A stretch of DNA of 64,000 nt from Raillietiella orientalis (taxonomy: Eukaryota), in assembly GCA_036172245.1 (NCBI GenBank), contig JAYWIR010000042.1, positions 124,001 through 188,000 of the forward strand, read 5' to 3'. The first letter of the stretch is position 1, and every line of letters starts with the position of its first letter. Positions 9,425-47,170 of this stretch are shown one piece after another. Made by a program: the position numbers and the translations under genes. The notes under the pieces were generated by a model that ran no database searches, had not been told where the DNA came from, and saw only the letters and a list, made by a program, of their open reading frames with translations.

Positions 9425-10560
9425 CGGGTTAGAGGCCGTGGGTGTGGCTGCAGGGTGTCTGCGGGTGGTGCCAAGCGTTGAGGGCTCGAATCCCCGCGTG
9501 GAGGAATCGACGCCAGAGAAATGGATGCGTCGTAGGTTCCAGTTCCCCCCTCAAGATGACGCTGGTTGGCCTGTAGGCCTCGGGCGAGGGGCCGCTGGAA
9601 TCCAGAAACCGGATACCTACGATGATTAGCCGGAACTAAAACTTGACCTTCCGAGGTCCTTCCAGGAATTAAGGATTCCTTCATGGTTCCCCTCCGGTTA
9701 TGAAAATGGTACGAGATAAGGGGTTCCCCCTCGACGAGAAGGGGTACTCCTTATCTCGTACCATGGAGCTGGTGCACTGATACCTCCCCAGAGTGTCCAA
9801 GAAGCGCGCTGCTCCCTTCTAGGAGGGCACCCTTCAGGAAAAATTTAGAAGCGCTTCTTCGGCGTCAGAGGAGTAACAAGGAGCGGATCCTTTCTGGAGG
9901 GTCCCTCCGGAGAAAATAAGGAAGAGGTGGTTTTCTTCGGGGTTCTCTCCCAAGCGTGAGAGGAACGGACTCCTTCCTTCTTAGCCTTCCTGGATTCCTA
10001 GGGTGATCCCTTAGGGATGACCCGCTATAACATGAAGCGCCTCTTCATGCGCGCCCTTTCTCCTGGAGTATCTCCAGCAGCTCTTTGCTGCTGCCTACGT
10101 GAGGAGTATGGTGCCCTGGAGGTACGCGAGAGGAGGACGGCGCGCGACGGGGACGCCATCTACTTTGCCCTGCGCTTCTTGCGGACGGCAGCAAGATGGC
10201 CACACCTGGAACCCATACTCGGAAGCAACTTGCCGGCATTCTGGAAAGGATGCAGAGGACGACCGCCAGCACCGGTGATCCTTCCCTAACCCTCCCAATT
10301 TTTTGTACATATTTTTGTTTTATTTTTATTTCTGTTTTCCCCTCTCGCTCCCCTGCCGTGGCGAACCTCGCCGGCCTGAGTACCGATTCTCGGCAGGTTC
10401 CGAGCATTTTCGGACAATGTAGGGCCCATGACCCTACACTTGTATGTTTATTATTTTCTTATAATAAACGTCCTGGCGTGACCAGGTGATGAACCTACAG
10501 CTTGAAGAGTTTCACGCTCCTTGGGACGACGTGGACAGTGTCAAAGAGCTTCGTGAGCCC
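9425..10560 (+). mobile_element. tRNA-headed structured SINE-like element, copy A (interrupted by a LINE 3' fragment)
   Basis: B-box-like GGCTCGAATCC (9483-9493) and core AAGATGACGCTGGTTGGCCTGTAGGC (9553-9578). Colinear with copies B-E. Homology resumes at ~10489 after the insertion. Confidence 0.8.
10038..10488 (+). mobile_element. 5'-truncated LINE 3' end (L1/Tx1-like), nested in SINE-like copy A
   Basis: Encodes AALCCCLREEYGALEVRERRT...FALRFLRTAARW, homologous to 60866-61150 (+) and 48223-48430 (-). T-rich 3' UTR, AATAAA at 10463-10468, terminal hairpin. Confidence 0.75.
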
Positions 10561-10599
10561 CCACCCAACCCCCCCTTTTCAAGGAGGCGAACAGTTCTT

Positions 10600-11450
10600 C
10601 AGCACTCTGCGAACCAGAAGAAAAGAGGGGGGTGGAAAGGCAGCAGGGAGACTCGAAGGCACCTCTTCCGGGGGGCTGGAACTCTCCAGAACCTCTGCTC
10701 CTGCGAGGAATCGGCGGGATGGTCCCGCCTCCTCCTCCTTGCCTTGATGGGAGCACCCGGACGCATGCTCTCCCGTGCACTGGGCTCCCGCGCTCTCCCG
10801 CTAGTTATGGAGAGAATCTCTCGTCCCTGACCCCGGTCGGATCTGAGGTAGAGGGGAGGTCTCGGAACCCGCATCCGCTCGGCGTCAACGCTGGCCCCCA
10901 GGGCTCCCGCTGGACCGGCGCGAACTTCCGGCCTGCAGTCGGAGGGCAAGCAGTGCCTGCGCTTGGTGGTGAAGAGCGGGCAGTCGTCGGGCCTTCAGCA
11001 GCGCCGTGTCCTTCTCCTCCTGTCGTGAGGTTCAAAGGGCACTGCTCAAAGGGCATCGCCTCACTACCATCCCCTTCCTCCTTCGCGGAAGAGCTCGGCC
11101 GTTCGCTGACGGCGTGTTCTTGATCGGAAGGCTTCAGAGCGGATCCGACGTCGATGTCCCGTCGACCTTCCTACGGGATTCAGGATCGAACGCTCCCTAC
11201 GTGCCGCCGCCCCGCGCCCGCAGCCCGACGGGAATGCTGCGCGCGTTTGCGTGCGCTTGTTGGCAGGGACCGTCGCGCTGTCGGGGCTGCGTGGGGGTAA
11301 AAGGGAGGGGCAAGTTGCCAAAAAGACCAACCCTGCGCCACCACTCGTGGCGACACTGCGCCTGAAGGCTTCCTAGAACGCAGTCGAAGATCGCGTTTCC
11401 TAGAAAGGGCTCCGCCTCCGCGTCCAGCCAGCCGGTCGCGAGACCGTCTA
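10600..11450 (-). mobile_element. LINE C-terminal remnant (copy 1 of a local pair)
   Basis: 10960-11097 is a diverged direct repeat of 11793-11897 (shared TCCCCTTCCTCCTTCGCGGAA.AGCTC). Both translate on the minus strand as ELFREGGRG. Confidence 0.45.
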
Positions 11451-11459
11451 TTTGTTCGT

Positions 11460-13560
11460 TTAGCTCTATGCGTTGCCAGATTGCTGGTTTTCGCTGCTTC
11501 CTTTTGCCTTGGGATCGCCTCCTCATCCTTTGGTTGGTTTTCCTTGCGTCACTTCGTTTCCGGGAAGCGACTGCTTCACCTCACGTTCTATCGTCGGTCC
11601 CGTCGCCTCCTTTCGGGTTTCGGATCCCGGCTCTCTCTCTCGGAAGGAAGGGGGAAAGGGGGGGGGGAGGAAAGGGTGATGGAGAAGCAGGAGCCGCACC
11701 AGGCTCAGAGGACGCACACACGCGGGTGTCCCAGGTGGACGCGCGGTCCGGGGACACGGACCGCTGGGCTGGCGGCGGCGCAAGCGGCGCTTGCGCTCGG
11801 CGGTGAAGAGCTGGCCTTCCGTGGCGCCGCATCTTCGTCCGTCGTGAAGCGTGGGGGAGCATTACTTCACTCCCCTTCCTCCTTCGCGGAAAAGCTCTAT
11901 CTTCTCCCGCCGAGGAAGCGCTGCGTCTCTGGTCGGAAGAGCTCCCAAGGTGCGCGCGGCTGGAAGCATACGGAGGCGGGCAGTTCGTTTCTCAGTCAAG
12001 CTGCCGACCGCTTTTCCCCCTCTGAGCGGCTCCCCATCTGGCTCAGGGAGGCGCATCGCGCTCTCCCCCTTCGGTTGGAACAATCCCCGTTCTAGAATCA
12101 CCGTTCACTGGAAAACCATCTCGAGGAACGACGGCGTTTTACTCCTCCCGATCCTGACGTATTCGAGCACGTTCATTAGTTGGAGCCGGCAGCAGCATCC
12201 CCGATATCTGGAGATTTTCATTTACGGGCTCGAGAAGCTGCGCTTATAATCTCAATGATAAGCTTGCTTGTCTCACGGAAGCATGGATAAATGATGGCCT
12301 TGATTTCCACTGCCCTGGGAGCGCTCCATCCCTGCCGCCTCGCGGACGACCGGGAGGAAATTCGCTGTCAGGAGTAGTGCAGCGCCGTTCTCTTCCCTTC
12401 CGGGAGGACTCCGCGCTCGGCGGAACGACGTTATGGGGTCCCGCGGTTTACCTCGCGCGGAACGAGCCAGGTCTGCTTTATGTAACGTTCCCGGAGCTGC
12501 TCCTGGTCGGAGCGGAGTGGTCTCTTTCGGCAGTCTCAGTGGAGATCGTCCGCTCCCCATCGTATCGGTTCGTTCTCGCGTTGTCGGAAGCCAAAGATCC
12601 ACGTGGATCGAGAGAAGACGGCAGACACGAGGGACGGTCGCCTCCGCAGAGCCCAGCCCTTCTGCAGTGGCAGTGGCGTGGTGGCTTCTATGATGGAGGA
12701 ACCCTTTACGTGGGAAGGTCCATCTTGTAATGTGAGCCATGGCTTCCTGCGCCTCTGGAAAGCCACAATGGCGAGGTCTTCTTTGCAGCACTGGAAACAA
12801 AAGAGAGATGAAACTTTGATCCCTTTCCGCCGCCTTGCAAATGCTCTTGATGGCTAGATGATCCTGTTTCCTCGCTCCCGCGAAGCTCCAAACCCGGGTG
12901 CTTGGAAGGCTTCTCTGGGATTCCGAAAGCAATTCTTTCGAATGACTGGCAGCACTCTGAGAGGCTAATAGAGGGACGAGGCGCGCAAAAGTGGCATCGC
13001 TGAGCAGCAAAGAAAGACCAAAGCAGCATCAAGACCGTGGGTGACGAATCAATAGGGCCGTTTTCATCCTCCCGATGACACCAGAGGCATGCACTCGATA
13101 TTTTTTGGCGGTTATGAGAAAAAGCTGAGTTTTGTTAGTGATGGCGTCTGCTATATTGTCTTGTGGCTTCCAGGAAGAGGTCTCCGTCATTTGATCTTAC
13201 GAGTCGAATCTGGAAGTCCCTGCGGAGGCTGCCCAACGCACTTTGGCAGCAGAGGAGTGAAGAGTCATCCGAAAGTGCACCGGGCTGATGAAGTTGCTGC
13301 GAAAGCTTGGCACACGGGACGCTCCAGGTTTCCGAAAATCCAGGCGTTTCGTGTCCGATCTGGCTGTGCCCAACAGTCTCTCCTAGGAAAGGTTCAGGGA
13401 TTCCCCAGCGGGAAACGTGGAAGGATAGTTCCCTAGCGAGAGATCAGCTCGGGCGTGATGTCTCTGCAGCGAAGAGGCACTGAGGAGAATAACACAACGA
13501 AGACCAAGTGGTGACCTATTCTGGATTCTTGGCATCCCCCGCTCGAGCTACCGGCGTCCA
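11460..13560 (-). mobile_element. Decayed L1-clade LINE, RT to C-terminus
   Basis: ALSDDSS, similar to YADD (~13270), and TLGALPTRD, a zf-RVT-proximal ALPT motif (~11940). Many disruptions. Confidence 0.5.
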
Positions 13561-14029
13561 CTCAGAGAATTCCCGTTTTCGAATTTACCAATGGAAATTC
13601 GCGACATCAAGAGAGACGAAACCGGGCAGCGGCGTTCGCTTCGCTATCCCCCACTCCCCAGCACGGAGCGGAAGAAGCGGGCTTGAGATTCCAAATCGAG
13701 GGAATCGGCCCTGATGAATGTTCGCACATCTTGAGCCACATTAGATTTTCCACCCCGATTAATGTCAGAACATCATGCACTGTGTTCAAGATAAGAAATC
13801 ATTGCGCAGAAGGAAGGGAGAAGAAAAAAAAAAAAACAGTCGATGCATCCAAAGAGGACGCTGGACCAACCCCTGCACCCTCGCGGCCGGAACGAAGAAA
13901 GCGGGGTGCCTCGTTGATCATCGCATGTGGAAAATTTGCATGGTCAGGTTCCTCATGTGCGGGGGAGGGGGAGGGTTTTGGAGGAAGCCCCGCATAGCTC
14001 CCGTCTCCGTAGAGGTGCCTCTAAGCTAG

Positions 14030-15190
14030 CTGAAAGTTAAGTCCTCCTGGAAGCGCTCTTGAGAAATCGATTTCGAGTAAGGAAAGTTGCCAGGACTCTA
14101 GAGAAAGCGACCGCCCTTGCTGCTCCGAGAACAAATCGATCACCCCCCTCCTCAAAAAAACTGAAGCGAGCAATCGTCGGGCACGGCACCCCTACAACCG
14201 GCGTTTCACATCCTGTTTTGAGAGCTTCCTTGGAAACCGTGCAACGCGGACGTATCAACCGAGAGTGTTGTGAGGGAGATGCCGTCGGAGATGCATCGCA
14301 CCGAGCCAGTCGCCGCTTTGGCCTCCGCGATCCACGGAGAGGACAGTGGAGCATCTCAAACCCAGGGCAGCCTGCCTGGTGGCTCTTCAGCTCTGGAAAA
14401 CCCCGGAGTCATCCAAGAAGTAGCGGACTTGCTAGGCGTTGCTATGTCCAAGAAGACACGGGAGACGGTCGAGCACAGAATCCGAAAGTCCCTGAGGAGG
14501 CTGCACGGCGCTGCTTTTTTCAGCCACCTGATTAAAGATTCCACGGCCAATATCGAGGAAATCCTGCTGAAACGCGTCGTTCTTGCTCGAATGCGACCGG
14601 AAAGAACTGGCGGAGTCCATCCCCAAGGAAAGCCCGACCTCCACTTGGAGCAAAAACCTGATCCTGGACGGGTGGTTCGCAGAGTCCAGGTACTTCCCGA
14701 TAATCTTTTTGGGCCATCTGCAGATAGAGATTATTCATGAGAAAAGAAAGCAATTGGAATTTAGTGATCCTGGCTTATCGTTTCCCAACATCATGGTCTA
14801 GTGTCTCCTTCCCCTGCATCGTGAATCTCGAACGAAGGAGGAAGATGGCGTTCCTGAAATCACAGAGAAAGTACGCAACCCAGAGGAATCCTGCAATCCT
14901 AATTCGACTCATTTCCCGGTGGGTGGGCCGATAGGGCTGCCGAAGTGTTTAAAACAAAGGAACCTCGCGTACGCGATGGATTCGGGAGCTCTTCCCTGGA
15001 ATTGGGTCCTCGGAATTCCGGAATGGGAAACAATCCACCTGAATCAAGGGTCTGACAAATTGTACGTGTCTTTGGATAAACAGCAAAGAAGGAGTATCCG
15101 GCAAAAATTGGCCAAGAAGGACACAGAAAAGGAAGTCCACTGTCCATCGGTCGGCATTCCAAGTGATTTTCGCGGACGTGAGGTAATCTA
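14030..15190 (+). mobile_element. Decayed L1/Tx1-clade LINE RT fragment
   Basis: DLLGVAMS...VEHRIRKSLRRL...LLKRVVLA resembles the YLG/post-RT region of L1-clade ORF2. PGLSFPNI resembles GGLG.P.I. Confidence 0.55.
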
Positions 15191-15203
15191 ACCCCCTCCA
15201 GAG

Positions 15204-15210
15204 TATAAAA
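15204..15210 (+). promoter_or_regulatory. Candidate TATA box of the fucosidase-like gene
   Basis: TATAAAA lies 100 bp upstream of ATG 15304, just after a LINE remnant. Confidence 0.45.
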
Positions 15211-18300: not shown

Positions 18301-21300
18301 TCTCATCCGAGTGGGGCGTATTCCTTTGGCTTCTGTGGCCGGCAAACAGTTGGTGCCACATCAGCAAGTACCATATAGCATCTCTGTAGCCGAAATCGCT
18401 ACAAACAGCTGCACCACTTGCTCTCGTTCAGTCAATGGTCAGAGTCTGCATGCATTAGTAGGGACATTAGGGAGAAGTCAGGGGAGGCTGAGGAAGTGCA
18501 ATCGACAACGCATCTCACTTCGAGATCATTGCTTGTATTAAGTGCTCTTAAAGCGACATTATCATGTCTGTCTGAGGAATCGATCCCCTTCTCGTGATGA
18601 GGGGAATCCTTGCCGATGCGCACGGTCCGCTACCAAGCCGTTCTAAACAAAGAGCGAGCAAACAGAAATGAAACCAGGAGCCGTGGAAACAACTGGACTC
18701 AATTCACCGAGATGATCTCTCTCTCTGTTCCCTTATCTATACTACAGACAGTCCAGCGAAAGTCTCTGTTCTGGACTATCTGGCTGAGGAGGAGTTGCAA
18801 CGGAGACCTAACCGTTACAAGCACTAGATGCGAGAGGCCGCCGCTGATCGAAGATGAATGGATCTCAGCTAGTACATCCAGAGTGGCTGAACTGCCCATC
18901 TACGAGCCGAAGACGCATTGCCTGAAGCAAGAGCTTCATGTGTCTTCTCTGCTTTAACACGCACGGTAGCTATTATTTATCTGGTGGAGAACTTCCTCTT
19001 CTGGCCGCAAAAATGCCCGATCCTTCTCTCCGATCCTCATACTCTCAACACTCGCATGTCAGGTCAGGTCAATATCTCGAATTCTGTGTGCAAATTGCAC
19101 TCCCTACAGAGCTGTGTGCAACTTTGACGTGGCAGTCCATGCAAAGAATCGAACGTTTGGTGGCAAGGCATGCCTCTAGCATTGTAGGAGCGGAGTTTAT
19201 AAGGGACCGACTCCCCTCCAGCAATCTTTCAGCGGAGAGCCGTCGATCCATCAGGGTTGCGGAGGGATTTCATACTTCCTTCCAGGCAGCTGGAACGATG
19301 AGCTGCTCTGCAAGCTGCTCCGTTTTTTCCAGCATCCTTACCCTCCTCAAAAAGAATTCTTCTTAATTCTTGACGTGTAGAGTTTCGAAAGCTTACCTAT
19401 GGTGAGGACGTTTGATAAGGTGCTGTTTTCTTGTTTCCTCAGTTTCCTTCGATGCCGCCTTTCAAACATATATGAACAGAATTTACCCTAAGCGTACGTT
19501 GTATCCAGCGTTTGCAAAATACTTCAAAGGAGAATATTTTTGCTCTGAAGCGTGGGCTGATGCGATAGCGTCTTCAGGTGCCAGGTTTGTACCTAAACAA
19601 ACGCGGTCAGTGGGGGGGAGAGTTTGCGTTCCTGGCCCTGCGAATCCTCGTGAGACCAAACCCATCTCAGTGAAACGCCCCCGAACCCGAAACAACCAGC
19701 TCACAGTGCTGAAGAACTCATCTGCTTATGAGAATCCACAAGCGTTTTCCCAACTGATTGCAGGAGAATTTCTCTATGAGCCTCCGCGGGAATCCGTTCC
19801 AAATTGATGCGGACCCAGGCGCACGCTCATACATTCAGCTCATGCGCTCTTTCTGCTCACACGATCAGTGCAAATGCCTCCACCGCGATACGGAAACACC
19901 CCCGGCTCGTCGATTCCTGCAGCCGTGTTCAGAGTACGTCTTGCAATTCTTCCCATCCGTATCCCAAGTCAACATCGATGATGGTGGAACTCCTCAAGGG
20001 CAACAAAACGAAAGTCGACCCATTCCACATTCTTGTGCGTGGAGCGCTGACTGACATTCTAAGACTGAAGTCTGAGTTCGAGGACCTCAGCCACGTCTAC
20101 TAGAGAGAGAGAAACAGTGGAGCAAGATAGACTGTTTTCCAAGGTGTCTGGTCGCCAGAAGATCACTTTTTGAAACAGTGCCATGAGCACAAAGATGTAA
20201 TCACAAAGGAAAGGAGGTATCCAATGGTAGACTTTTGCGTTTGGTAGAAGACAAACTCATAGGCGTAGGTTCTCCAGTGGAAGGTCTGAGCTATCAGAGC
20301 AGGAAGAGTCAAGAATGGTAGGTGCACAAGTTTCCATTAAAGCAGCCAGCGAAAGCAACTCAGTTTTTCAAGCAACTTGCAGATTCAGTGGCGGATTCTT
20401 TTCCGAAGAGATCCTCGTGCCGCTGGATGGCCGAGATGATTAGCTCCAGTGTGCTTTGAAATGGTACCTTTCCAGAACGTTAGAAGCGGAAGCTCATCTT
20501 GGGTTTCTGAAACCAAATACCAGGCAGCATCTTCGTAGTTAAGAAGCAACCCACAAGTAAACACTCTTCGTTCAGGAAAAACGAGTTGAGATGGACCCTT
20601 CAAGGATTCGTCGGATCCATCAAGTCGAATGTTTCGGTCCGCGTCGGCGGCCGTGTGACTGCGGTGTTCCCGCGTGGTGCCAAGCGCTGAATGTTCTAAT
20701 CCCGCCGGGAGAAAGGGTCGACGCCGACAAATGGATGCCTCGTGGGTCTCGAGCGCCCTCGCGGAATGGCTCTGGTTGGCCTGTAGGCTTCGGATGAGAC
20801 GCCGGTAGAAAGAAACCACTTGCTATCGTCGAGTGGCTGGGATTGGGAGTTTACCTTCCGGGGTCCTACCAGGATTCAAGGAACCGGTTTCCTTCGGGGT
20901 TTCCCTCCGAGAATGAGAAGCCCTCTCCATCGCGGAGGGGAAACTTCCATCGCGTTCTGTGAAGCTGGTTGATTGGGAGGTTGCCTCTCTAGAGTGTCCA
21001 AGTAGCGCGCTGCTCTCTTCGGGAGCGGCCCTTTACGGAAATTGGGAATCGTCCCTTCGCGGTTCCATTCGGAGACAACCATAGCGCGGGTTCTTTTCGG
21101 AGTTTTCCCTCTTAAGCGTAAGAGGAAAGGATTCAATTCCTCCGGTTCCTTTTTGGATGCATAGGGTGGTCACCGGAATACCCCCTGTAACTTGAAGAGT
21201 AACAAGCACCCTCGGGAGACGTTGAACAACGTTAAAGAGCTCCCTGACCCCTAGGGGAGCGGTTGTGGAGTGCTTCAGTCTTGCAGATAGAAGCTTTGGA

Positions 21301-24300
21301 ACTCGCTCTGACTCAGTGAGGCGCCTCGAAACTCCATCAGCTCTTCGCAGGTTGACTGACTGCACTGTGACAGGATGAACTGTGACTCCTCAAGATGCGG
21401 AGAACAGTTTCGGCATTGTGGAGAGTGTCTTCAGCAATCACACTCTCCACGATGCCGGAAGTGTTCTCCGCATCTTGGGAATGATAGATTGCGTGAGGCT
21501 AGATGCTTAGATGGATAAGCTGGTCGAATGTCAAAGAAGGTGGGCTCCGCAGATGCATCGGAGTACCAATTGACGGAACGCGTTCCGCAACGGTTCGAAC
21601 GTTCAGAGAATTCACTTGCTCCCAGGATGCGAAATTGAGAAGAATGGGCCAAATTATCCACAGGAACCATAAGTTGGTTCCGTTATGCTCACCGTAGAGC
21701 TTGGGACGAAGGTCTGAATTTCTGGCACCATCGAGGAGGCAAACGGAGCAACGAAAGAACGGAGAACCCTACTTTTTTTGGCTTGGCTCATCAACATGAA
21801 CGCATCTGCTGTGTTCTCTTGATTCGGAAAATACCATGTCTTTTCCGTTTCCTCATAGGCAGAAAGCTGGGAGCAAGGGATTCCTTCGGACCCATATTCT
21901 GGTAACAGTGAAATGCCTAAGCACTACTGCTGCTGTCGAGTCAAGCATGAGTTTTCGACACTCCACATCAAACAGATTTTAGAATGGACTTTTCTCCTTC
22001 GCATGGAGCTCCTGAGTAATAGAACTACTCTAGGATCTTGTCACTTGGATCCGCCGTTGCACTAATTCTAACATTGGGGTGCCGCCAAATCTTGCTTCTA
22101 GCTGCGATTCCGTATAAGAACCATGACGGAAATGTGAAAGATCGCTCTGAGGCATTGGACAATCGGGCGGAAAATCGCCAGCGTGCATCAAGAACCAGAA
22201 ATGCAAACGATTCTTGACGCCAGAGCATTTGCTACTCCCTGTTCTAGAGGGCTTCTTGCTTTGGGAGATGCTCACGGCAGTGGTGGAATGAAAGCATTAT
22301 GAAAAGAAGCGAAGCGGTCATCAGCAACCTCATTTCTAAGCAGAAGCAGTGGCGATGCTCACTGGGCAAGATGGAACTTTCTGGAAATTGCTGAAAATGT
22401 TGAAAACAAACTCATCCTGGCAAGCGAAGTGGGCAAGCAGAACAGGCCCAAGCGACCTCTTTACTTCCGTTGAGTTCTTGTGGGACTTCGAGCACCTTTA
22501 GACGCTAAAGGTCCATTGGCGCGGAGAAAATGGCAATCTTTTTGACGGAAGTTCCCACCTGCGAAACAGTCTTTTTTTTACCAAGCGTTTGGAATTGCTT
22601 TCCTCTTGCATTGAGTTTACTTCACCGCAGGATTTCAATCCACGAAAAGGTGCGATCTCTGGATCTTCCTTAAATCCAAACCACATCAGCCCGTACGATG
22701 GTGGAAAAAGACGAAGGAACGGTGATGCAATCGCTGCTTTTCTTACTCCGCTTGTGCCGCCTTATGCCTCTTCGGTCGAGTCATTTTTTTTTTTTTTCCG
22801 TTCGCATCAGTTTCCAAATAGAAGTTCCCGCTGCTTCTCTCTTCGAACCAGTACCTATGGAACCAAAGTGCCGGAAAGGCAATAAAGGAGAAATGGCCTC
22901 AAAGCAAAATAGGAAGATGCAGAGGTCTTCGTTATTTTCTTCCACGGGACGACTTGAAAAGTTTCAAGATGGCGGATCAAATGAACGGAAAATTTACTTC
23001 AGAATCTGTCGTCTTTTAGCTTTCCAGTGAAAGAGAATCCCTCCGTGTCGCGATAGCTGGTGGCCCGTTGCCTTGCTTAGCAACTTTATGGGATGCTGGG
23101 ATATAATTGACGCGAACGTTTCGTTTATCGAAATTAGGAAAGCAGGGATTTATCTTTAGGTGATGAGGCAGCATTGTTTATAGCATTGACGTGCTCGCTG
23201 CAAAATTTTAGTTTAGAGCAGGTGGCATCATCTGCCTCTACTTCTACCTACCTACAAAATGCTCTCTCTAAAGCTTGCCTGTGTAATATGCTTGTTCGAT
23301 AAGTGTCAGAGTCGTTTCTTTCCGTCACGCACAGAAGGAAGATCGCAGGAGCTTGGAGGATAGTCCTCCAAAGAGAAACTCCTGGTCTCGAACCTGATGA
23401 AACCCTGAATCTCTTCCCCTCATGCGGGTGTGCATGTACGAGCATACGGAACCAGGAGCGCGTCCTGCTCGTCGGATTTCACTGGTTCGTGTGCTCGGTT
23501 GGTTCCTCCGGTGGAAAACTTCCCCCCACTCCAATGCAGTAGCTCACTTTGTACATCCTCAGCGTATCCTGAGGGGAGCCGTCTGTGAGCTTGGAATGCA
23601 GCTCTGAAAATCCCCAGTACGCTCTTCTGCATCTTCTTCGTTGGATAAGCGGGGCGGCGAGGACGGGAAGGGAAAAAAAGAAAGGAAAAGAGAATTTCAC
23701 GGTGTGTCCGTGTATCCCCTCTCTCGTGACTGCTTGACGCTCTTGAGACAAGCGAATGGTTGAACGGCTTGCTGGATGGGCGACGCGGATGGCGGCAGCA
23801 CACACGCAAGCCAAAGGAAGTCTCTTTGTCCTTGTGCACCTTCTGGTGACTTTCAGATACGTTGTCCTGATGTCTCATCACAATGACGGGTACTGCTTGT
23901 GGAATTCGAAGCACTGCACGGTGTGGAATACGATCGTCTCCGGACCACGGCGAGACATCGTCGGTGAGTTGGCAATTCTCTCTCCCAGGTGTGTAAGTCT
24001 CCTTGGAAACTGAAAGGAGAGCTCTTGAATTCTACGAGGAAGAGGAGAATGAGGTTCGGTCTATTCTTCTCCATGGACGAGTATATGAGCCCTCTCTTCC
24101 ACTCGGACAAATACCTGAACTTCAGGGTGAATGAATTCCCAAAATTGAGGACCATTCCTCTGTTATATGAATTGGTAAAGTTTTCAACTAGCAATAATCA
24201 CGGCTCAGTCGCCTTCCTCGCCTATGATACTGCCCGTACCAAGGCTGAATTGGTACGAAACACCAATGTCGCTGTTGACTTCTTATTTCGAGACCGCGCA

Positions 24301-27300
24301 ATTATGCTCTTACGTTGGAAAAAACCACAGATGATACTTTCTCTCAAACTACGGTCTGCATATGCGGGTATCTCCCTCTGCATCTCTCCAAGAGGCCGAT
24401 TCTGGAAAAAAAGTGGGCGGGGGTTCTATTTTCGGAATCCCCCTTTCCCAAGGTGGTTGAAATTCCACGATCCTCCTTTTTGGTCTCCCATTCCTGGAGG
24501 CATCGCTTGCTTGGAGGCGACCCGTGCCTGCGACCGTTCCTTGACGGGCCGATTTTTTCGTCACGAGAGAATGGAAGAAGCAAAGGCAGCGAGAACTGCG
24601 AAAATTCGTCCTCATACTGCCAAGCTGTGGATTTGCGGAACGCGGATAAGACAAAGGCAGAAGCGCAGCAGAAAAATTCTTGCATAGCAACGAGCGAACT
24701 TTCCCTCTTCCGAATCGCATGCAAAACCGCGGATGCGGTCTGTCACTCTCCCTCCCAGCCGCGCCGGCTCCTCCCCTAATCGCGATCCGTGCAAGTCGAG
24801 CGGCCACCCTTCCCGAGCTTCATCCGAACTTTTGTCTCCCTTGTTGAAGGTCAGAAAATACTCTCCCGATCTGTTGTGGGTCTCAGGAAACAAAGAACCG
24901 TTTGAGTACTATGAAAGGGACACGTTCCTGTCGTGGGTGTACAACAAGAGCTCAGTGGGGAAACACATCGTGATAAACAGCTGCTGGCATTCCGATGGCT
25001 GCCCTGAATGGAAACGTAAGTAGGGGCTTCCCCCCGTTCCCTACACAAGACACGACTCTCAACGCTCCCGATGGGCTGCCCCATCGGGCGCCCGAACCGC
25101 ACGCTGGCGGCCGCGTGGCTGCCGTCCTTGAGAGTGGCATTGCGGGTTCGAATCCCATCCGGGGAAGCGTCGTGGCTTTCGAGTGCACCCCGTAGGATGA
25201 CGCTGGTTGGCCTGTAGGCTTCCAGAGCGGCACCAATGGAAGCCAGGAACTCCCGGAGGTGCCCATTAAGTGGCCGGAACTTGGAAGCTGACTCCTCGGG
25301 GTCCTTCCCGGAATGAAGAAGCCCTCTGGGGCTCAAGTCCTCCGGTCGTGTGAAAGGGGACCCTCCATCACGTACCCATGGAGCTGTTGGTGGATTGATA
25401 CCTCCCCAGAATGTGAAGAAGCGCTCTGCTTCTAAAGGGTGGGCAGGAGAGAACTTCACACTCTGGGGAAAACAAGGATGAGGCTCTCCTCGGAGACAAC
25501 CAGGGTGTGGGTTCGGGGGGGGTTTACCCTCTTACGCGTAAGAGGAGAGGACTCGTTCCCTCAGAGCGCTTTCTGGAAGCATAGGTTGGTCCTCTCCCAG
25601 TGTACCCCCTGCAACTTGAAGGGTCAACACGCACCGCCAGGTGGCGTGGAACAGGGTCAAAGGGTTTCGCGAGTTCCTAGGCGAGTGGCTCTTGCTTCAG
25701 CCAAGGGCAAGGGTCGGCTTTTCCTCCGGTGCGCGGGAGGACTTTCTTCCAAGGATGGCGCGGCCTGCGTCCGGGCGGAAGCTGGAAAATTTGCTGATGT
25801 GCTTTGCAGAGCCGCAGGAGTTACGGCAGACCTATTCGAACGATCGCTCGGCACCACCGTGGAGGATCCCTTGCTATTTTAACGGGATATCTGAAATTAG
25901 ATCTTGTTGTTTTTTTCACTCAACGGCGACGACTGGCAGCACGAGAAGAAAGGGATAGAAGAAAAGGAAGGGAAGAAAAAGAAAGAACAGCAATAATAGT
26001 CTCATTATTTTCTTTGCTCATCACTGCGCAAAAAAAAAAAAAAAGCTGCACTCAGCGGGACTGATGTAAAGGAAAATGCACGTTGGATACGCGCGCGTTT
26101 CGCCGGTCCTCGAGAGGCAAATTGGTAAATTTCACGTGGAAGACGTGACACGGAATACCGGGCGAAGTGGATGAAGCACGGGAGGGGCCGTCGCGTTCGG
26201 GCGTGCACCGCCGGGTACGGATGTTCCGCGGAGATAGAAGAAATGAGTCAGGATGCTCCTGGCGTAGGCGTCTGGAGCAACACTCGAAGTTCACCTCCGA
26301 TGCGTGCCGTTCGCTTGATGACGGATGGCGGTGCGGAGAAAGAATTCCTCCTCTTTTTCGGGATCGGCTCCGACACCGACGAGTTGCCGGCGCAGCCACA
26401 GGGCATAGGAGCTCAACGAACGGGGTGGAGAAGAGAAGCTGGGTTCCCTTAAGGGCCAGAACCAGGATGAAACATCGCAGCACACGCCATGACGACGTGT
26501 CGGATTACCTTCGGGCATCTTCCAGCATTCTGTGCCTCGTAGTTTTTTTCCATTTTTCCACCCCTGTGGTCCGCTTGCAAAGGCATCCCGACCTGGATTG
26601 TCAGGAATTTCCGAACGTGCTTTACGGACTCTTCGTCTTGACATCCAGCTCCAGCGGGTAGGGGGAGGAAAGTTTGCCGTAGCAAACGCCGAGACTGAAA
26701 GCGAACGACGCCGCAAATTCGAACGACAGGAGGAACGGCGGCTGCTTTTCTATGCAGCCGATCTTTTGATTCCTCGAAACCCACGTTTTCGCCTCGTTGG
26801 GCTTATACTGGCTCCAGGGAGCCATGCCACTGCAAAGATGCCGCAGGCAAACTAGCAGATGATCAAGGAAGAAACCGCAAGAGGCAAGAACGTGAAGCTT
26901 TGTGCCGATCTTAAGTCAGAGTGGGTTCTTCTCGAAAGGAAGAAAGAGAAAAGCTGCGAAACTTCCCCGTCCGGAAGGAGCGTCCTGAAAGAACACAGCC
27001 ACCTCCGTCCCCATCCCTCGGAGGTCGATGCCGCGAACCAGTTTTGACTCGCTCTCTGCGTTCACCCCACCAGCACGGAAAGGCAGCAGCGGGACGGGGC
27101 TACCAAGGTACTCGCGAAGGGTGGTGAGCAGCCGAAAGCGCGCCCGTACGTAAAAGTGTACGCGCACTTTTGCGTTGGAGGCCTTGGAGGCTGCGGTTCT
27201 CCGCGCGCGTGGTTCCAAGCGTCGCGGGTTCGAATCGCGCCTGAGGAAGGATCGATGCCGAGAATAGGGGTGCGCCGTCGTAGGTTTCGAATCTGCTTCC

Positions 27301-29937
27301 CTCCCCCCGCAGGATGACGCTTGCTGGCCTTGGTTGGCTTCCGGCGCGGCACTGGTGAAAGTCGGGAAACCCCGGATGTCCCCATTAAGTGGCGAAACTT
27401 GTAAGCTTATTTCCCGGGGTCCTTCCCGAAATGAAGAAGCCCTCTGGGGCTCAAGTCCTCCGGTCTCGTGGAAGGGGACTCTTTATCACGTACCCATGGA
27501 GATGGTGGTGGATCGATGCCTCTCTAGAGTGTGAAGAAGAGCTCTGCTCCCTTCGGGGAGCGACTCTTCAGAAAAACTGGGAGGCATCCCCTCGGGGTTC
27601 TCTTCAGAGGTGTAAACAAGGAGCGGGTCCTTTTTAGGAGGTCCCTCCGGGCACCACTCCGGAGGGAACAAGGAAGAGGTTCCCTTCGGGGTTCCTTCCG
27701 GAGACAACCGGGGCGTGGGTTCACTTTGGGGTTTCCCCTCTTAAGCGTAAGAGGAGAGAACTCCCTCATCAGCCTTTTCTAGAATCATGGGGTGACTTCC
27801 TTCCGGGAGTGAACTCCTATAACTTGAAGAGTCACTGCACGCAGCTTCGGGTGGCTTGGAACCGAGCCAAAGAGCTTCGTGAGATTCCAGAAGGACCAAA
27901 AAAAAAAAGAAAGCCCGAAGGAAAAAAAAGGGAAGAAGCTGAACGCAAAGCAGAGGAAACGGAAAGAACCCAAAAGGATTTTCAGCACCCTCCGAGGTCG
28001 AGGGGCTCAGGAGCCCAAAGGAAGTCGGGATGCTGGAGCGTTCTTCCGAGCTCGAAAGCAAGTCTTCCGGATGAATCCTTGGGGAGGCTGGTACCGGAAT
28101 CGCGGGTCATCCTGAGTGGCGACGTCACTCTGGATGGTAAACGCTCTCCCGGGAGGCGCCGGAGCTCGCCCTCGGCGTGCAGCTCCCAGTAACGGGTGCC
28201 AGAGGCCTCCGATCTGAAACGCCCCCTCCGGATCGCGTGTCTTTTGGTCTGCCACTCCCCGCCTCCGCGCACGAGCCGAAGACATTTCGTGTGTGTGCAG
28301 GCAGGGTAAGGTCTGATACTTTCAGTAGCCTCCGGGAAGAAAGGAGGTCTCCGAGGGGACAGTCAAGTCTACGGGTTCCGCTCCAGCATCCGCAATCGGA
28401 GTGTGGAGGTGGAAGGGAAGGGCATGTAACCACCCTGAACCTCTCCAGAAAACCGAGCGTTCCTTTCCCGTGGTCTTCAATTGAGACGTCGGAAAGCCAT
28501 GCGGGAAGCAAGGATACCTGGATCCTCACGTCCGCATCTTCGCATCATTGTCTCACCCCCCAGGAGGGACGGACGAGGGACTAGGCGCAGGCGGGGAAGC
28601 CATGTGGATCCCTGGTAACAGGAACCGTAGCGTCCTGTCACCGAGGCGAAGACGAAGCACCGGAGTCAAAGCGTCAGCAATTTTCGCCCGTCCCGTTTAT
28701 CCGGGAGCGCAATTTCCTGCCGCGGGGAAATGGCGCGAACCAGAAGACCAGAGACCTCAAGGATCTGCGGGAACAGGGATGGTCTCTTTCTGAAGAGCCT
28801 GCCTTTCGACTCAGTGGGTTCCCTGAGCGACAGCTGCTTTCGCGCTCTCCCGGTGCTTCGGGGACTGAAGCGCTTCCTTCTCCTTTTCCTGGCTCGCTCC
28901 TGCTAGTCTTGCCGAGCGGTTGCGCCCTCTCCGAGCTCCTTACGAGTCTTTGCCCGAGGCCCCCCGCCGCGTTTCTCAGAAGCCTTCCATCCTGGAGGCT
29001 GGTGGCCGAAAGGAGGAAGCGAGATGAACGGTGGTTTGCGCGGGTGGGCGGTTCGGAAAGGAGGCGGGCCAGGGGGCGAGGAATGGGCTGAAGGCTGCTC
29101 CCATGGGTCCAGACCTTCAGCTCCCTCTCCCTTTTTTCACTTCCCTCCCTTCTCTGCCGTTCCCCGTCTCGCAATGCGTTGCCATCCCCACGCAGTGACC
29201 CGCAAGGAAGCAATGTGGGAGGCCTGGGACAGGACGGATGTAAACAACTGGAGCTACAACCCGGAAACCCCCCTGAGCCGCTTGCTGACCTCCAAGAGCA
29301 TCGTGAGGAACCTCGTCATCCTCATCAGCAGGGGAGGTAGGTCTCTCCCGCGTTCCTGCTGATCAGGGAGAGAGGCACGGGAACCGCGCGATCCCCAGAC
29401 AACTACCTCCTGAACGTGGGACCGAGCAAAGAGGGGATCCTGGATCCATACATCCATGAGCAGCTGGTGCAGGTGGGCCACTGGATGAAAACCAACGGTC
29501 AAGCCATCTACGGTGCGGAGACTTGGATCTGCTCTGAGGACCCTAAGTACGGAAACATGAGGTAGCGGGAAGAACGGGAGGAGAGAGAGGTTACACGCTC
29601 GGATCCCTTCCTCCCCTGCAGGTACCTCCTGAAGAGAGCCAGGAACAGGCAGAACTCCATCTACGCCGTCCTACTGGATCTCCCTTCCTCCGGGTTCGTG
29701 GACCTGAGCTGCCCTGTACCCAACAGGCAGACCGTCGTCACCTACCTCGGAAACCAGAAAGTCCCTATCAGGGTAGGGCTTTGTCCTCCACCCCCTCAGG
29801 GAGGTGCCGGCCGAGAGTAGCCATCCCTCCAGTTTCAGTACGCGGGCGGCTTCATGCGCATCTTCCTTCCCCTCGAGGAATTAGACCTGAGTGCCCAGGC
29901 CTGGGTTCTGAAGCTCGCTCTCCTGAAGAACGCCTGA
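15304..29937 (+). CDS. Alpha-L-fucosidase-like protein (GH29), 9 exons, 444 aa, probably non-catalytic
   Basis: Exons 15304-15505, 19443-19584, 23857-23963, 24017-24174, 24850-25015, 29196-29336, 29399-29561, 29622-29772, 29833-29937. All introns are GT-AG and phase-compatible; 1335 nt with no internal stop. GH29 motifs: [72 protein letters not shown]-terminal signal-peptide-like stretch. The exon 6 acceptor is least certain and a micro-exon may be missed. Confidence 0.93.
16700..19400 (-). mobile_element. Decayed R1-like non-LTR retrotransposon in fucosidase intron 1
   Basis: [11 protein letters not shown], similar to GVPQG (~18090), and C-terminal [16 protein letters not shown]...YLTHCLG, similar to W...kGR..y..fP...lTq.l.GhG (16890-16985). 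Confidence 0.55.
19600..20620 (-). mobile_element. Decayed non-LTR RT fragment in fucosidase intron 2
   Basis: Weak remnants WKLVHL and ENLRL, similar to WK.A.v and nYRPI, near 20260-20340. Confidence 0.35.
20640..21256 (+). mobile_element. tRNA-headed structured SINE-like element, copy B
   Basis: GTTCTAATCCCGCC box, CTGGTTGGCCTGTAGGC core, CCTCTTAAGCGTAAGAGG hairpin, CCTGTAACTTGAAGAG block. Confidence 0.8.
21391..21477. repeat. Near-perfect inverted repeat (38-bp arms, 11-nt loop)
   Basis: Arms 21391-21428 and 21440-21477 match at 35 of 38 positions. Confidence 0.95.
21780..22900 (+). mobile_element. Possible decayed RT/RNase H remnant
   Basis: SNIGVPP, similar to GVPQG (~22070), and ISPYDGGK, similar to IYTDGSK (~22690). 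Weak. Confidence 0.3.
25100..25681 (+). mobile_element. tRNA-headed structured SINE-like element, copy C (fucosidase intron 5)
   Basis: Perfect B box GGTTCGAATCC at 25145-25155 and core GGATGACGCTGGTTGGCCTGTAGGC at 25195-25219. The central part closely resembles copy D. Confidence 0.85.
27172..27908 (+). mobile_element. tRNA-headed structured SINE-like element, copy D (near full length, A-rich tail)
   Basis: B box GGTTCGAATC at 27227-27236, several cTTCGg hairpins, CCTATAACTTGAAGAG, terminal A run. Confidence 0.85.
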
Positions 29938-33559: not shown

Positions 33560-33599
33560 GTTGGTAATGACTAAAACTACATGAACATCAACTCGATAC

Positions 33600-43489: not shown

Positions 43490-45261
43490 ATGAGATTCCT
43501 TCGAATTCAATTTAAATAGTAAATGCTAATCGGTTTAAGCAATGAAATTGTTTTTCAAATGTAGAGTGGGGATTGTACGAAAGACATACGTAGTGCACGA
43601 TGCTGGACAACGATCGGCATTGGCGTGACCGGAGGAATGTTTTTGCTTCTTGGCCTTTTGCTTGCCCTAATAGGTGTGCCATACATAGTGAATCAAAAGA
43701 TTGAAGAGGTACGAAAGATCAGGTGGCATACGTTGAGTAAAACTGTGTTTGCTTTTAAGCACGTGAAACTAGAGAATGGCTCAGAAGCCTTCGTTTTATG
43801 GGAAAATCCTCCAGCTGAGATTTTATTTAAAGTGTACTTTTTCAATGTGACCAATGCAAGAAGTGTTAGCTGGCTTGGTTCTAAGCCCCGGTTGGAAGAA
43901 GTAGGACCATTCGTTTATAGGTGTGTGCAAATGGTGATCTCTCACTGTTAAGTGTGACTGTACATAGCTGCTTTCCAGAGAAAAGATTAAGAGGATACCA
44001 GTGAGCATAGGCAGACATAATGGAAAGCACATCCATTATATACAGACACGACAGTACGTATTTGATGCCAAATTGTCAGCACCCTTAAGTGAAGATCATC
44101 AGATATGTACTGTGAATGTACCACTTCTGGTAGTTTCTCCTTTCGTAATCAGCAAGTTTCAGTATGTTTTAGGCCGCTGCAGACTCTTCCAAACAACTTC
44201 CCCAAGTATTCAAAATAATATTAGAGCTGATCTTCCAGAGATTTCATGAGCAACTATTTTTGGTGAAGCCAGTAAGACAGTTACTGTTTGAAGGATATTA
44301 TGAGCCAATGATTGCACTCCTTTCTCGTATTATGCAGCAAACTATGCTTCCCAATAATACTTTTGGTTACATGTACCTGGTAAGACAACATCAAAAGAAA
44401 CAAATTCAGAAAAAGCTTTTCAGAAAAATTCCTCTACCGATGGAGAATATAGCATTGACTCTGGAGTAGAAAATATCAGTAGTCTAGGCAAAGTCACCAG
44501 CTGGAATAATAAGGAATCATTAGACATATGGAATGACCAGTTTTGTAACATGCTCAATGGCACGGATGGCACTGTCTATGCTCCCTTTGTGCCGCAAGAT
44601 CAGAATCTCTATGTGTTCATCTCAGATGTGTGTCGATCACTGTATTTGAAGTGGGAGAAACCTGAATTTGTGAAAGGCATCCCGGGGCAACGTTATGTGC
44701 TACCAAAAACCATTTATGCCAATCCAGATACAAATCCAGATAACAAATGTTTTTGCACTCCGGAAAAAGGGCACTGCATTCTACCATCTGGTTTGCTTGA
44801 AGGCACACGATGTCAGCCAGGTGCACCATTATATTATTCCAATCCCCATTTCTACGAAGGAAACCCATCTTTATTGGAATCAGTGAATGGTCTGTCACCA
44901 TCACAGAGTGCCCATCAAACATTTGCTATTCTAGAACCTGTGAGTAAATGCAATCTAATGAATGATACTTAAGGCAGTACAGAGAATGGGTATTCCATTG
45001 AGAGTAGCTAAGAGAGTACAAATTAACATGCATTTGTGGCCAGTGAATGGCTTCACAAACTTCCGCCATGCACCAAGTGTCTATCTGCCTGTGCTCTGGA
45101 TGTCAGAGGAAGCAGAAATACCAGAAGACTTAATGCAACTGCTGAAAAGTAGACTCATAGATCCTCTGGCTTTGGCAGACATTGTCTGTTGGTCATTGGT
45201 AACAGTGGGAAGTCTAATTTTGTTGTTCTTTCCATTGTTTCTCCTGAGGTTCCGGACCTAA
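43490..45261 (+). CDS. CD36/scavenger receptor class B family protein (SR-B1/LIMP-2/croquemort-like), ~494 aa
   Basis: Exons 43490-43518 (tentative), 43567-43708, 43760-43920, 43979-44129, 44173-44379, 44424-44939, 44983-45261. Motifs KVYFFNVTN, KPRLEEVGPFVY, LLFEGY, CNMLNGTDG, DVCRSL, NKCFC, GAPLYYSNPHFY, KRVQIN. N- and C-terminal transmembrane segments. Confidence 0.95.
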
Positions 45262-45310
45262 TCTTAATCTTTTTACTCCCGTTTTCTGAACTGTGATATT
45301 TACCTTTTCT

Positions 45311-45316
45311 AATAAA
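45311..45316 (+). terminator. Polyadenylation signal of the first CD36-like gene
   Basis: AATAAA 50 bp after the stop codon. Confidence 0.6.
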
Positions 45317-45562
45317 AACTTACAATTAAAAGAAGCCGTTTTTATTTTTCCGATTAGTTGTGCACTAACTCAAGAGCTGCTCTGCAGAATAACAACGGGA
45401 ACACTACAGGAAGAGAAACTGCCCACTCAACAAACGTGTTTATGGGAACATAAAGGAACACAATAATCCTCAGGTCTCTGCTGTGTAAATCATGTATGGA
45501 TACAATAAGATCACTTACACCAACAAAAACAAAAGTTACCAAAACATCCTTGCATAGCACAT

Positions 45563-46352
45563 TTATTGGTATTCACTGTGAACCAATGCACCCATGTGCA
45601 TAACAAATTTGTTACAATTAAACGATGGTTCCCATATTTTGTAAGTAATGTGTCAACTTTGGTCTATCTGTCTGACCATGGAATATCCATTCCTTAGTAT
45701 TAAATCAAGGGAGCATTTTGTAGATCTTGTAGATTGGCTCACCTGATATCATTACGGTTTTTCAGGTGCAGAATCTTGGCCACAGAATGAGAAAAATAGA
45801 ACGCTGATCTCAAATGAAACAAATGCATAATACAGACAGATACATAAAACAAAACCAAGGATCCCAGAACGAAAGAAGGCTGCAGCTGATGTTGTTGAAC
45901 GCTTAGTTTGATTTTATAAATTCCATAATTTAGGTGAAGATCATTCTATTACCCTCATAGCTCCGAAAACTTAATGAACAAGCGATGATGGAAGAACATA
46001 TTGTTCCGATTTATGAGCGACCTCTTGCGATGCCAAAATTACGCAAAATGATCAGCAGCTAATTACAGATAAGTACACAGTAAATACAGATTGCAAAGTC
46101 CAACACATTCCCCTGCAATCTTGTACACGATCTTGTACAACAGTGTCAACAGATCATGACACTTGCTACTGCTTACCAGTCTGCAGACTAATCATGAAAC
46201 AGTAGGAAAGCCCTGTACCGTGAATCTTATGTATTTATGTCACAAAAACATACACCATGAAAATTTTGTGAAGTTTTCCGAAGCATTCTTCGCTAGCGGG
46301 AAGTTTTTTGCATGGTTCCGTGGAAAATAACCTCGTGAATCTCGCAGAATCC
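45563..46352 (-). pseudogene. Candidate multi-exon gene or pseudogene convergent with the first CD36-like gene
   Basis: Regularly spaced 41-51 bp GT-AG segments. Splicing them gives a frame of about 180 codons interrupted only by two TGA codons. No family recognised. Confidence 0.35.
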
Positions 46353-46381
46353 TTCTGCAAAATTGGGCAACCACAAAGCCC

Positions 46382-47170
46382 GCGTCGGAGGCTTTGTGGT
46401 TAAGGCTCCCGCGCGTGGCACCGGGCGCCGCGGGTACGAATACTCCGACAGAGACTGACGCCACTGCGTCGTTTGGGTTCCTCCTGCAAGATGGCGCTGG
46501 TAGGCCTAATCATTCGGGCGTGGCACCAGTGGTCGTTTAAGCCGGGGGCCCCCTATGAAGGCCGGAACAATGGGAAATTGACCTTCGGGTCTACCTAGGA
46601 ATGAAGGAGTGAGGAGTCCCCCCCCCCCTGTCGTGTAACGGAGAGCGGGTCCCCCCCTCACCGGGGGAACCATATGATTTCAAGATGGAGCAGGAGCCCT
46701 CACGGGCACTCTCCAGTTGTTCAAAGGAGCAGACCCCCCTGTTGCGGGGGAACCCTCCGAGTCGCCGCCTCTTCACAGAGTGCACAAGGAAGCGAGAGCG
46801 ATTCCCTGCGGGAAGCTGCAGCGCCCCTTCTGAATTTCGGAAGCGACCCTTCGGGTTCTCTTCAGAGGAGCGAACAGGGGATTACCCACCCCCCTTCCGG
46901 GGAGGTCCCTCAGGAGACCCTTCCGGACCCCCTTCTGGGTCCCCCTTCGGAGACAACCAGGGAGGGAGGTGCCATCCCCTCCCCAAGCGCGAGAGGAACG
47001 GACTCCGAGCCTTTCTGGATTCAAAGGGCGGACTCCCTTCCGGGCGTGCCCCCCCTATCTTGAAGATAACACGCACCCTCCGCGGGTGGCGTGGAACAGT
47101 GTTAAAGAGCCGCGTGCGCCGCGAGGCACGCGACCGGCTCTCGAGGTACTTCGCGTACCAAAAAAAAAAG
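46382..47170 (+). mobile_element. tRNA-headed structured SINE-like element, copy E (A-rich tail)
   Basis: TGTGGTTAAGGC D-loop-like and GGGTACGAAT T-loop-like segments, AAGATGGCGCTGGTAGGCCT core, GACCTTCGGGTC and other UUCG hairpins, A-rich end. Confidence 0.8.

What the first reader, a model, noticed from the sequence alone, without database searches (positions are those of the whole stretch)
9425..47170. Five copies of a long tRNA-headed element built from tetraloop-capped hairpins
Seen: colinear copies at 9425-10560, 20640-21256, 25100-25681, 27172-27908 and 46382-47170, all on the + strand. Each has an A-box-like GGCC.TGTGG and a T-arm consensus GCGGG-TTCGAAT-CCCGC, then a core RGATGACGCTGGTTGGCCTGTAGGC and a 500-700 nt GC-rich body with no shared ORF. 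The copies are visibly diverged, yet hairpins recur at equivalent positions with different sequences. One is GACCT-TCCG-AGGTC (A), GACTC-CTCG-GGGTC (C), GACC-TTCG-GGTC (E). Others are GCTCCC-TTCG-GGGAGC (D) and CCTCTTA-AGCG-TAAGAGG (B, D). Copies D and E end in A-rich tails. Known: tRNA-derived SINEs carry internal Pol III boxes and are usually shorter; cUUCGg is an exceptionally stable RNA tetraloop. Inference: an undescribed long SINE, or retrocopies of a structured Pol III ncRNA whose fold was selected in the master copy. All heads have GTGG where an anticodon loop would lie, so a tRNA-His origin is tentative.
Basis: partly seen in the sequence, partly recalled or inferred. Interest (0 to 1): 0.8.

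Follow-up and report, generated by a model that had tools for sequence, protein, structure and literature searches.

The report
Unusually long hairpin-rich tRNA-headed SINE
These five repeats are old copies of a small jumping gene (a SINE) that has thousands of copies in this animal genome, whose youngest form is about 1,100 bases long, well beyond the usual size, and into which a larger jumping gene repeatedly lands at fixed spots.

Summary
The five copies are real. They belong to a dispersed family of roughly 6,500 copies (rough estimate) in a 210-Mb animal genome. It behaves as a tRNA-headed SINE. The head has A/B-box spacing and best matches tRNA-Arg(CCT); His ranks 14th-29th of 54. One lineage runs from an old ~0.85-kb burst (window copies A-D) to 1.09-kb copies 94-98% identical to each other. 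Complete copies end in a hairpin, a T-run, an A-tail and 9-14-nt target-site duplications. Copy A is split by an L1-clade LINE; such LINE ends recur at fixed sites inside the SINE, and one SINE-LINE chimera shares a single duplication. Subfamily consensuses fold better than shuffles, carry 4-5 CTTCGG on the transcript strand only, and lack internal TTTT. Covariation is weak: clear only in the 5' hairpin, borderline overall; the quoted hairpin variants are mostly decay or subfamily differences. No Rfam match inside the element; Dfam/Repbase and RNA data could not be checked. Verdict: new, oversized variant of a known element class.

The parts
9425..10036 (+). Copy A, 5' part (old subfamily S1, consensus positions 4 to ~640)
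   Evidence: 84% to S1 consensus
10032..10493 (+). 5'-truncated 3' end of an L1-clade LINE ('LINE-B') inserted in copy A at hot spot I; decayed 13-nt duplication at 10024-10036 and 10494-10506 (9 of 13 alike, by eye)
10494..10663 (+). Copy A, 3' part resuming after the LINE
   Evidence: 78% to S1
20637..21287 (+). Copy B (S1), 3' end lost before the A-rich tract
   Evidence: 82% to S1
25098..25701 (+). Copy C (S1), internal deletions, 3' end lost; perfect B box at 25145-25155
   Evidence: 81% to S1
27168..27990 (+). Copy D (S1), runs through the internal A-rich tract (about 27899-27935) to the common truncation point; B box 27227-27237
   Evidence: 83% to S1
46378..47231 (+). Copy E (younger subfamily S2a), 3' end lost just after the internal A-rich tract (about 47160-47207)
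   Evidence: 89% to S2a
46378..46419 (+). 5'-terminal hairpin, containing the A-box-like 11-mer (46389-46399); the best-supported conserved helix
46433..46443 (+). B-box-like 11-mer of copy E, 44 nt after the A box as in class I tRNAs
   Evidence: sequence; spacing from established knowledge
9555..9578 (+).
60550..61410 (+). Second, more distant LINE-B-like 3' fragment, not inside a SINE
   Evidence: 66-72% to LINE-B loci

Best explanation
A tRNA-derived SINE, about 0.85 kb in its old form and 1.09 kb in its youngest. RNA polymerase III starts at the first G from internal A/B boxes, reads a body free of TTTT and stops at the element's own T-run after a 3' hairpin (inferred). The RNA gains an A-tail (inferred from T2-8 followed by A). 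An L1-clade LINE protein then copies it by target-primed reverse transcription into A-rich nicks, leaving 9-14-nt duplications (footprint shown; enzyme inferred). One master lineage has evolved throughout, growing by duplication of a ~31-nt hairpin module and by new self-complementary inserts. Genomic copies decay neutrally. The hairpins come from the master; selection on its RNA fold probably acts on the 5' hairpin and perhaps more widely. An older L1-clade family (LINE-B) uses fixed sites inside the SINE as preferred targets and at least once copied SINE RNA in the same event as its own.
For: Copy number and dispersal. Ladder-shaped tree of 75 copies; divergence from subfamily consensus falls 20.6, 11.4, 8.2, 7.7, 4.2, 1.7%. 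Head scores above all 200 shuffles against 54 genomic tRNAs (45 vs max 38; 43 vs max 40); 62-64% identity over 77-78 nt to tRNA-Arg(CCT). No T>=4 inside any of six consensuses; shuffles give none in 10%, 1% and 3% of trials. 29 of 30 hairpin-anchored copies have T2-8 right after the hairpin and most are followed by an A-rich run. Exact duplications of >=9 nt next to the tail in 14 of 24 complete copies. LINE-A ORF2 has endonuclease and RT domains and is closest to human L1 ORF2p; LINE-B matches it by tblastn. Chimera L227/L266: whole SINE, T-run, 1.3 kb of LINE-B, one 17-nt duplication round both. LINE-B ends at SINE site I in 6 of 29 LINE-anchored loci, with different 5' truncations, plus 5 more junctions genome-wide.
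Against: No transcript evidence. Isotype is not firm: local alignment ranked Asn, Arg(CCT), Asp for S1 and Thr, Gly for S2. ARAGORN and Rfam see no tRNA in the heads. No 3' homology with the 30 best RT loci, and the LINE that makes today's A-tailed copies was not identified (150 of 3358 RT candidates scored). 24 of 30 tail-anchored copies stop just before the 3' hairpin, and 0 of 21 such 5'-complete copies have an adjacent duplication; LINE insertion explains only some. Length exceeds the SINEBase definition (<700 bp; <1 kb in practice).
Confidence: 0.88

Rival explanations
1. Retropseudogenes of a functional, structured cellular Pol III RNA (7SK-, 7SL- or MRP-like) whose gene is under host selection.
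For: Own terminator after a 3' hairpin; consensus folding z of -2.9, -4.9 and -8.3; U6-like chimera with a LINE; many copies truncated at one point, as in tailless retropseudogenes (PMC5322556, passages).
Against: No Rfam match in the window or in 15 copy-bearing loci apart from flank hits. The source changed continuously and gained large inserts. Substitution rates at paired and unpaired positions between S1 and S2 are similar (0.13-0.18 vs 0.13-0.19). Thousands of copies. No rDNA homology.
Confidence: 0.05
2. The element is a SINE, but its hairpins are a by-product of mutation (slippage in C/G runs, fold-back copying during reverse transcription, module duplication), not of selection on RNA structure.
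For: Changed pairs kept between masters: 28 of 69 (41%) against 37% in dead copies, p=0.32. The two relatedness-resistant measures are not above shuffles (140/500 and 222/500). RNAalifold covariation term on the five copies is unfavourable (+4.49). New inserts are themselves inverted repeats.
Against: 5' hairpin: 5 of 5 changed pairs kept. Gap-free blocks: 10 of 17 kept vs 36% (p=0.053); 10 of 14 in the S2d-versus-intermediate comparison (p=0.009), but 9 of 22 and 11 of 21 in others (p=0.41, 0.1). CTTCGG 4-5 times per consensus against 0.35-0.61 in shuffles, its reverse complement never.
Confidence: 0.45
3. A non-autonomous LINE derivative or DNA transposon with a chance tRNA-like 5' end.
For: Length; fixed-site association with LINE-B.
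Against: Sharp common 5' end at the tRNA-like head (92 of 145 copies start within the first 50 profile positions, a set enriched by the searches used); no terminal inverted repeats seen; variable-length duplications with A-tail; no homology to LINE-A; LINE-B junctions carry their own duplications, so they are insertions.
Confidence: 0.05
4. The RNA carries a self-cleaving ribozyme or processing site that explains the sharp truncation before the 3' hairpin.
For: Only 6 of 30 copies continue past that point against 28 of 30 past an internal anchor.
Against: By-eye threading of the head and the 3' hairpin onto an HDV-like topology (recalled) failed; no Rfam ribozyme hit; at least L042 and L171 are explained by LINE-B insertion at this site; internal priming is a published alternative.
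Confidence: 0.07

Closest known systems
tRNA-derived SINEs (SINE2 class; SINEBase, PMC3531059)
   Same: tRNA-like head with internal boxes, body of unknown origin, >100 dispersed copies, subfamily succession, target-site duplications.
   Different: About 0.85-1.09 kb against 75-662 nt for 175 families; body built from repeated hairpin modules; second B-box-like arm after the head.
Mammalian T+ SINEs (B2, Dip, Ves; PMC8466645)
   Same: tRNA head, own T-run terminator directly before a variable A-tail, L1-type insertion footprint.
   Different: [quoted passage not shown]
Tx1-Mar LINEs and SINEU of crocodilians (PMC4494074); Tx1 in Tx1D
   Same: L1/Tx1-type LINE prefers fixed sites inside another mobile element.
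   Different: Here the target is a SINE, not a DNA transposon; the SINE itself does not appear to share the LINE's preferred sites; Tx1 clade membership was not tested by phylogeny.
U6/L1 and Alu/L1 chimeras (PMC13174262)
   Same: Full-length Pol III RNA, sense, fused to a 5'-truncated LINE within one duplication (L227/L266).
   Different: One clear case and one possible (L242); 11 extra bases at the 5' junction.
V/Vhc and Meta/MESC central-domain SINEs (PMC4824008, PMC4758252)
   Same: An 11-nt match to a MESC-region motif at a similar distance from the head, and a loose likeness of the modules to the Vhc stem-loop.
   Different: Neither short motif scored above shuffles (14-47% of shuffles as good).

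Membership tests
SINE (SINEBase definition) | Interspersed, at least 100 copies | tested here: met
   1565 core hits, both strands, many contigs; 448 younger-type heads
SINE (SINEBase definition) | >=60% identity to a tRNA over >=60 nt | tested here: met
   62-64% over 77-78 nt to the genome's tRNA-Arg(CCT); above 200 shuffles. Tested on this genome's 54 tRNAs, not the human set the paper uses
SINE (SINEBase definition) | Short (<700 bp; <1 kb in practice) | tested here: not met
   Old form ~0.85 kb passes the 1-kb limit only; youngest copies 1,076-1,102 nt pass neither. Hence filed as an oversized variant
SINE (SINEBase definition) | Transcribed by Pol III from internal promoter | not testable with these tools
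   Indirect only: box spacing, no internal TTTT, terminal T-run
SINE (SINEBase definition) | Non-autonomous, LINE-dependent retrotransposition | tested here: met
   No shared ORF; A-tail and duplications; chimera with LINE-B
T+ SINE | Pol III terminator before the A-tail | tested here: met
   T>=3 in 25 of 30, T>=4 in 16 of 30
T+ SINE | AATAAA upstream of the terminator | tested here: not met
   Present in 4 of 30 copies, absent from the consensuses
V/Vhc-SINE | Vhc stem-loop domain | tested here: inconclusive
   One 15-nt motif only; not above shuffles
MetaSINE/MESC | 66-bp Meta domain right after the head | tested here: inconclusive
   No clear likeness by eye to the printed bivalve sequences; one 17-nt downstream motif not above shuffles
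CORE, Deu/Nin, Ceph, alpha, beta SINEs | Shared central domain | not testable with these tools
   No Dfam/Repbase; SINEBase supplements unreadable
tRNA-His-derived head | Best similarity to tRNA-His | tested here: not met
   Rank 29, 14, 20, 22 of 54 for four consensuses
Known structured ncRNA or ribozyme (Rfam) | Covariance-model match | tested here: not met
   only U4 and a flanking 28S fragment score, both outside the element
Tx1 clade (for LINE-B) | RT phylogeny within Tx1 | not tested
   Only L1-like ORF2 similarity and target preference; the label Tx1 is recalled

The most novel reading that the evidence does not exclude
A recently active 1.1-kb monomeric SINE whose RNA fold is selected along its whole length, which terminates and gains an A-tail by an AATAAA-independent route outside mammals, and which doubles as the preferred landing site of an L1-clade LINE that has also mobilised it.
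Probability: 0.3. Interest if true: 0.72.

Novelty: new variant of a known kind. Interest (0 to 1): 0.52.

Why it matters
It pushes the size limit of Pol III SINEs from about 0.66 kb to 1.1 kb and supplies a dated series of master sequences in which growth by hairpin modules can be followed. It suggests terminator-plus-A-tail SINEs exist outside mammals without AATAAA. It shows a LINE using a SINE as a safe target, a relation I did not find described in the searches run. Length-capped SINE finders would miss or split such families.

Tried and rejected
ARAGORN on the window: 0 genes. Rfam: nothing inside the element. Shared 3' tail with the 30 best RT loci: none; the one strong hit (L065) is a LINE-A copy inserted antisense into a SINE. 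rDNA origin of the body: no profile hit in three 28S loci. Vhc and MESC motifs: chance level. HDV-like ribozyme in head or tail: by-eye threading on a recalled topology failed. tRNA-His: rejected. Short copies as RNA chimeras with a distant duplication: 2 of 21 gave a distant match, one 9-nt and chance-like, one a LINE-B insertion. Expression: no RNA holder listed, no run was listed; this is no evidence either way. Placing the organism with a CD36 exon: two searches empty, so taxon-specific literature was not searched. Four element motifs searched in full texts: 0 papers. An unbiased random genome sample was not obtained, so the copy number rests on motif calibration. Window copies A-D were dropped from the tree by my de-duplication step and were assigned separately. 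Subfamily consensuses left out L154-type duplicates L008, L173, L180, L221 and L231 of the 75 tree copies.
Full report
Setting. The window is G000:C42:124001-188000 of a 210-Mb, 491-contig genome. CD36-family exons, a U4-like match and the tRNA set point to an animal, probably an invertebrate (inference). Two homology searches to place it were empty.

Observation. Five colinear + strand copies exist and all quoted hairpins are where stated. The quoted A-box and T-arm strings are consensuses, exact in no head. The A-rich stretches of D and E are internal. Copy A holds a 460-nt LINE fragment. The element covers 3,726 of 64,000 window bases (5.8%) against 990 of 92,187 bases (1.1%) round 30 tRNA genes.

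Copy number. The core 18-mer has 800+765 hits at <=1 mismatch, control 1. It detects 17 of 72 copies found by other anchors, giving about 6,500; those 72 are themselves biased to well-kept copies, so this is rough. The tail motif has 272 hits, the 3' hairpin 101, the younger head 448; controls 0.

Anatomy. Sharp 5' G; tRNA-like head whose first 42 nt fold as one hairpin; a second B-box-like arm; the core motif; a G/C-rich body with 2 (S1) to 4 (S2d) recognisable copies of a ~31-nt hairpin module; an internal A-rich tract; AAGGATTTCCATCATC; a ~45-nt terminal hairpin; T-run; A-tail. Against 54 distinct genomic tRNAs the head beats all 200 shuffles. Global alignment ranks tRNA-Arg(CCT) first for three of four consensuses and Asp for the fourth; His is 14th-29th. 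Local alignment ranked Asn or Thr/Gly first, so the isotype is tentative. No consensus has an internal run of four T, though several have eight TTT; shuffles give none in 10%, 1% and 3% of trials, and dead S1 copies carry about one each.

History. A tree of 75 near-full copies is a star of old copies followed by a ladder (window copies A-D were lost from it in de-duplication). Mean divergence from subfamily consensus: S1 20.6% (32 copies), intermediate 11.4% (6), S2a 8.2% (16), S2b 7.7% (6), S2c 4.2% (4), S2d 1.7% (6). S2d copies are 94-98% identical (one duplicated pair 100%) and 1,076-1,102 nt long, so activity is recent. A-D fit S1 (81-84%), E fits S2a (89%). SINEBase gives 75-662 nt for 175 families (PMC3531059, parts 1-2 of the text read; supplements unreadable, and they may hold a matching family).

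Insertion footprint. Of 30 hairpin-anchored copies 29 have T2-8 next, usually then A; AATAAA occurs in 4. Of 24 complete copies 14 have an exact adjacent duplication of 9-14 nt, mostly starting AA(A). This is the T+ SINE layout minus AATAAA; PMC8466645 (passages) reports T+ SINEs only in mammals. Of 30 copies anchored just before the hairpin 24 stop there, against 2 of 30 after an internal anchor; 0 of 21 such 5'-complete copies have an adjacent duplication. LINE insertion explains some (L042, L171); internal priming (PMC5322556, passages) is an untested option; the rest is unexplained.

LINE relations. The top RT hits are one young family, LINE-A, with endonuclease and RT domains, closest to human L1 ORF2p (E 5e-57; R2 3e-28), in head-to-tail arrays, with no tail homology to the SINE. 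The insert in copy A is an older family, LINE-B, similar to LINE-A ORF2 by tblastn (E 6e-13; one short frame gave nothing). Among 50 distinct LINE-B 3' ends, site I (S1 position ~625, sense) holds 6 of the 29 LINE-anchored loci other than the window (5 by profile, 1 by eye), plus copy A and L164; five more junctions appear genome-wide. My rough arithmetic for chance is about 0.04 of 29. Site II (~168, antisense) holds 8 SINE-anchored loci (6 by profile, 2 by eye; two are arms of one inverted duplication); site III (~512) holds 2. Duplications of 13-17 nt flank several. Precedent: Tx1-Mar in Mariner-N4 (PMC4494074, passages). L227/L266 is a full SINE, T-run and 1.3 kb of LINE-B inside one 17-nt duplication, like U6/L1 chimeras (PMC13174262, passages). 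So LINE-B protein could copy this RNA. The partner of today's A-tailed copies is unidentified; only 150 of 3358 RT candidates were scored.

Structure. Consensus folding z-scores are -2.9, -4.9, -8.3 from old to young; window copies give -5.7, -0.4, -1.1, -3.0, -2.3 (25 shuffles each); a young copy's first 299 nt give -3.75. CTTCGG occurs 5, 4, 5 times against 0.35-0.61 expected, its complement 0 times; total four-base-loop hairpins (9, 7, 15) do not exceed the shuffled maxima. For covariation, S1-predicted pairs changed in S2d were kept in 28 of 69 cases against 37% in dead copies (p=0.32). In gap-free blocks only: 10 of 17 (p=0.053), 9 of 22 (p=0.41), 11 of 21 (p=0.1) and 10 of 14 (p=0.009) across comparisons. 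The 5' hairpin kept 5 of 5 changed pairs, one of 22 helices and noticed after the fact. On 22 real copies, 81% of cells pair and two-sided cells exceed shuffles (1/500), but the measures resistant to relatedness do not (140/500, 222/500). RNAalifold on the five window copies gives an unfavourable covariation term. Conclusion: the hairpins are real and inherited from the master; selection on fold is plausible, shown at best for the 5' hairpin.

Known families. Rfam: none inside the element. 28S rDNA: none. MetaSINE and V-SINE sequences were seen in PMC4824008 (passages; supplement parts 1 and 4 and searched rows) and PMC4758252 (passages and part of section 11); a full comparison was left out and two short motifs were at chance level. 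PMC4994717: one passage, not useful. Nine literature searches showed no such family; the library lacks most subscription journals and Repbase Reports.

Verdict. Shown: dispersed family, subfamily ladder, length, terminator, A-tail, duplications, LINE hot spots, one chimera. Inferred: Pol III transcription, post-transcriptional tailing, selection on fold. A new, oversized variant of tRNA-headed SINE; interest 0.52.

Noticed in passing
window 55306-56192 and 59022-59908: 887-nt inverted repeat, 98% complementary, bracketing CD36-family exons (56483-57031); looks like a recent inverted segmental duplication.
   Followed up: no
window 44358-44972 and 56483-57031 (+): Two CD36/scavenger receptor B exons covering the same profile region, so tandem paralogues.
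   Followed up: partly
window 24122-24246 (-): U4 snRNA match, 56.4 bits over a cut-off of 46; gene or pseudogene not determined.
   Followed up: no
window 21391-21477: 38-nt inverted repeat, 92% complementary, 11-nt spacer, just downstream of copy B.
   Followed up: no
window 9706-9764: 27-bp near-perfect hairpin inside copy A, formed by a local inverted duplication absent from the other four copies.
   Followed up: partly
L249-L264 (e.g. G000:C150, C53, C26, C74): Young L1-clade family LINE-A, ORF2 of 1,214 aa intact in L252, in head-to-tail arrays with about 5.6-kb spacing and a 3' stem-loop rather than a poly(A) tail.
   Followed up: partly
L158 3162-3339 and 5999-6497: A LINE-A copy inserted antisense into a SINE copy near S1 position 600.
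   Followed up: partly
L233 1153-1282 and 2553-2725: Degenerate 28S rRNA fragments flank a SINE copy, which seems to have inserted into an rRNA pseudogene.
   Followed up: no
L157 (G000:C24:2030001-2040000): Recent inverted duplication of a SINE plus LINE-B block; L010 and L011 are its two arms.
   Followed up: partly
L054 5' flank; L186 3' end: Head preceded by an inverted copy of itself (L054) and terminal hairpin half inverted (L186); possible fold-back or twin-priming products.
   Followed up: no
L224, L240, L164: Young SINE copies nested in or next to older SINE copies; L238 and L240 have LINE endonuclease-coding sequence downstream.
   Followed up: partly
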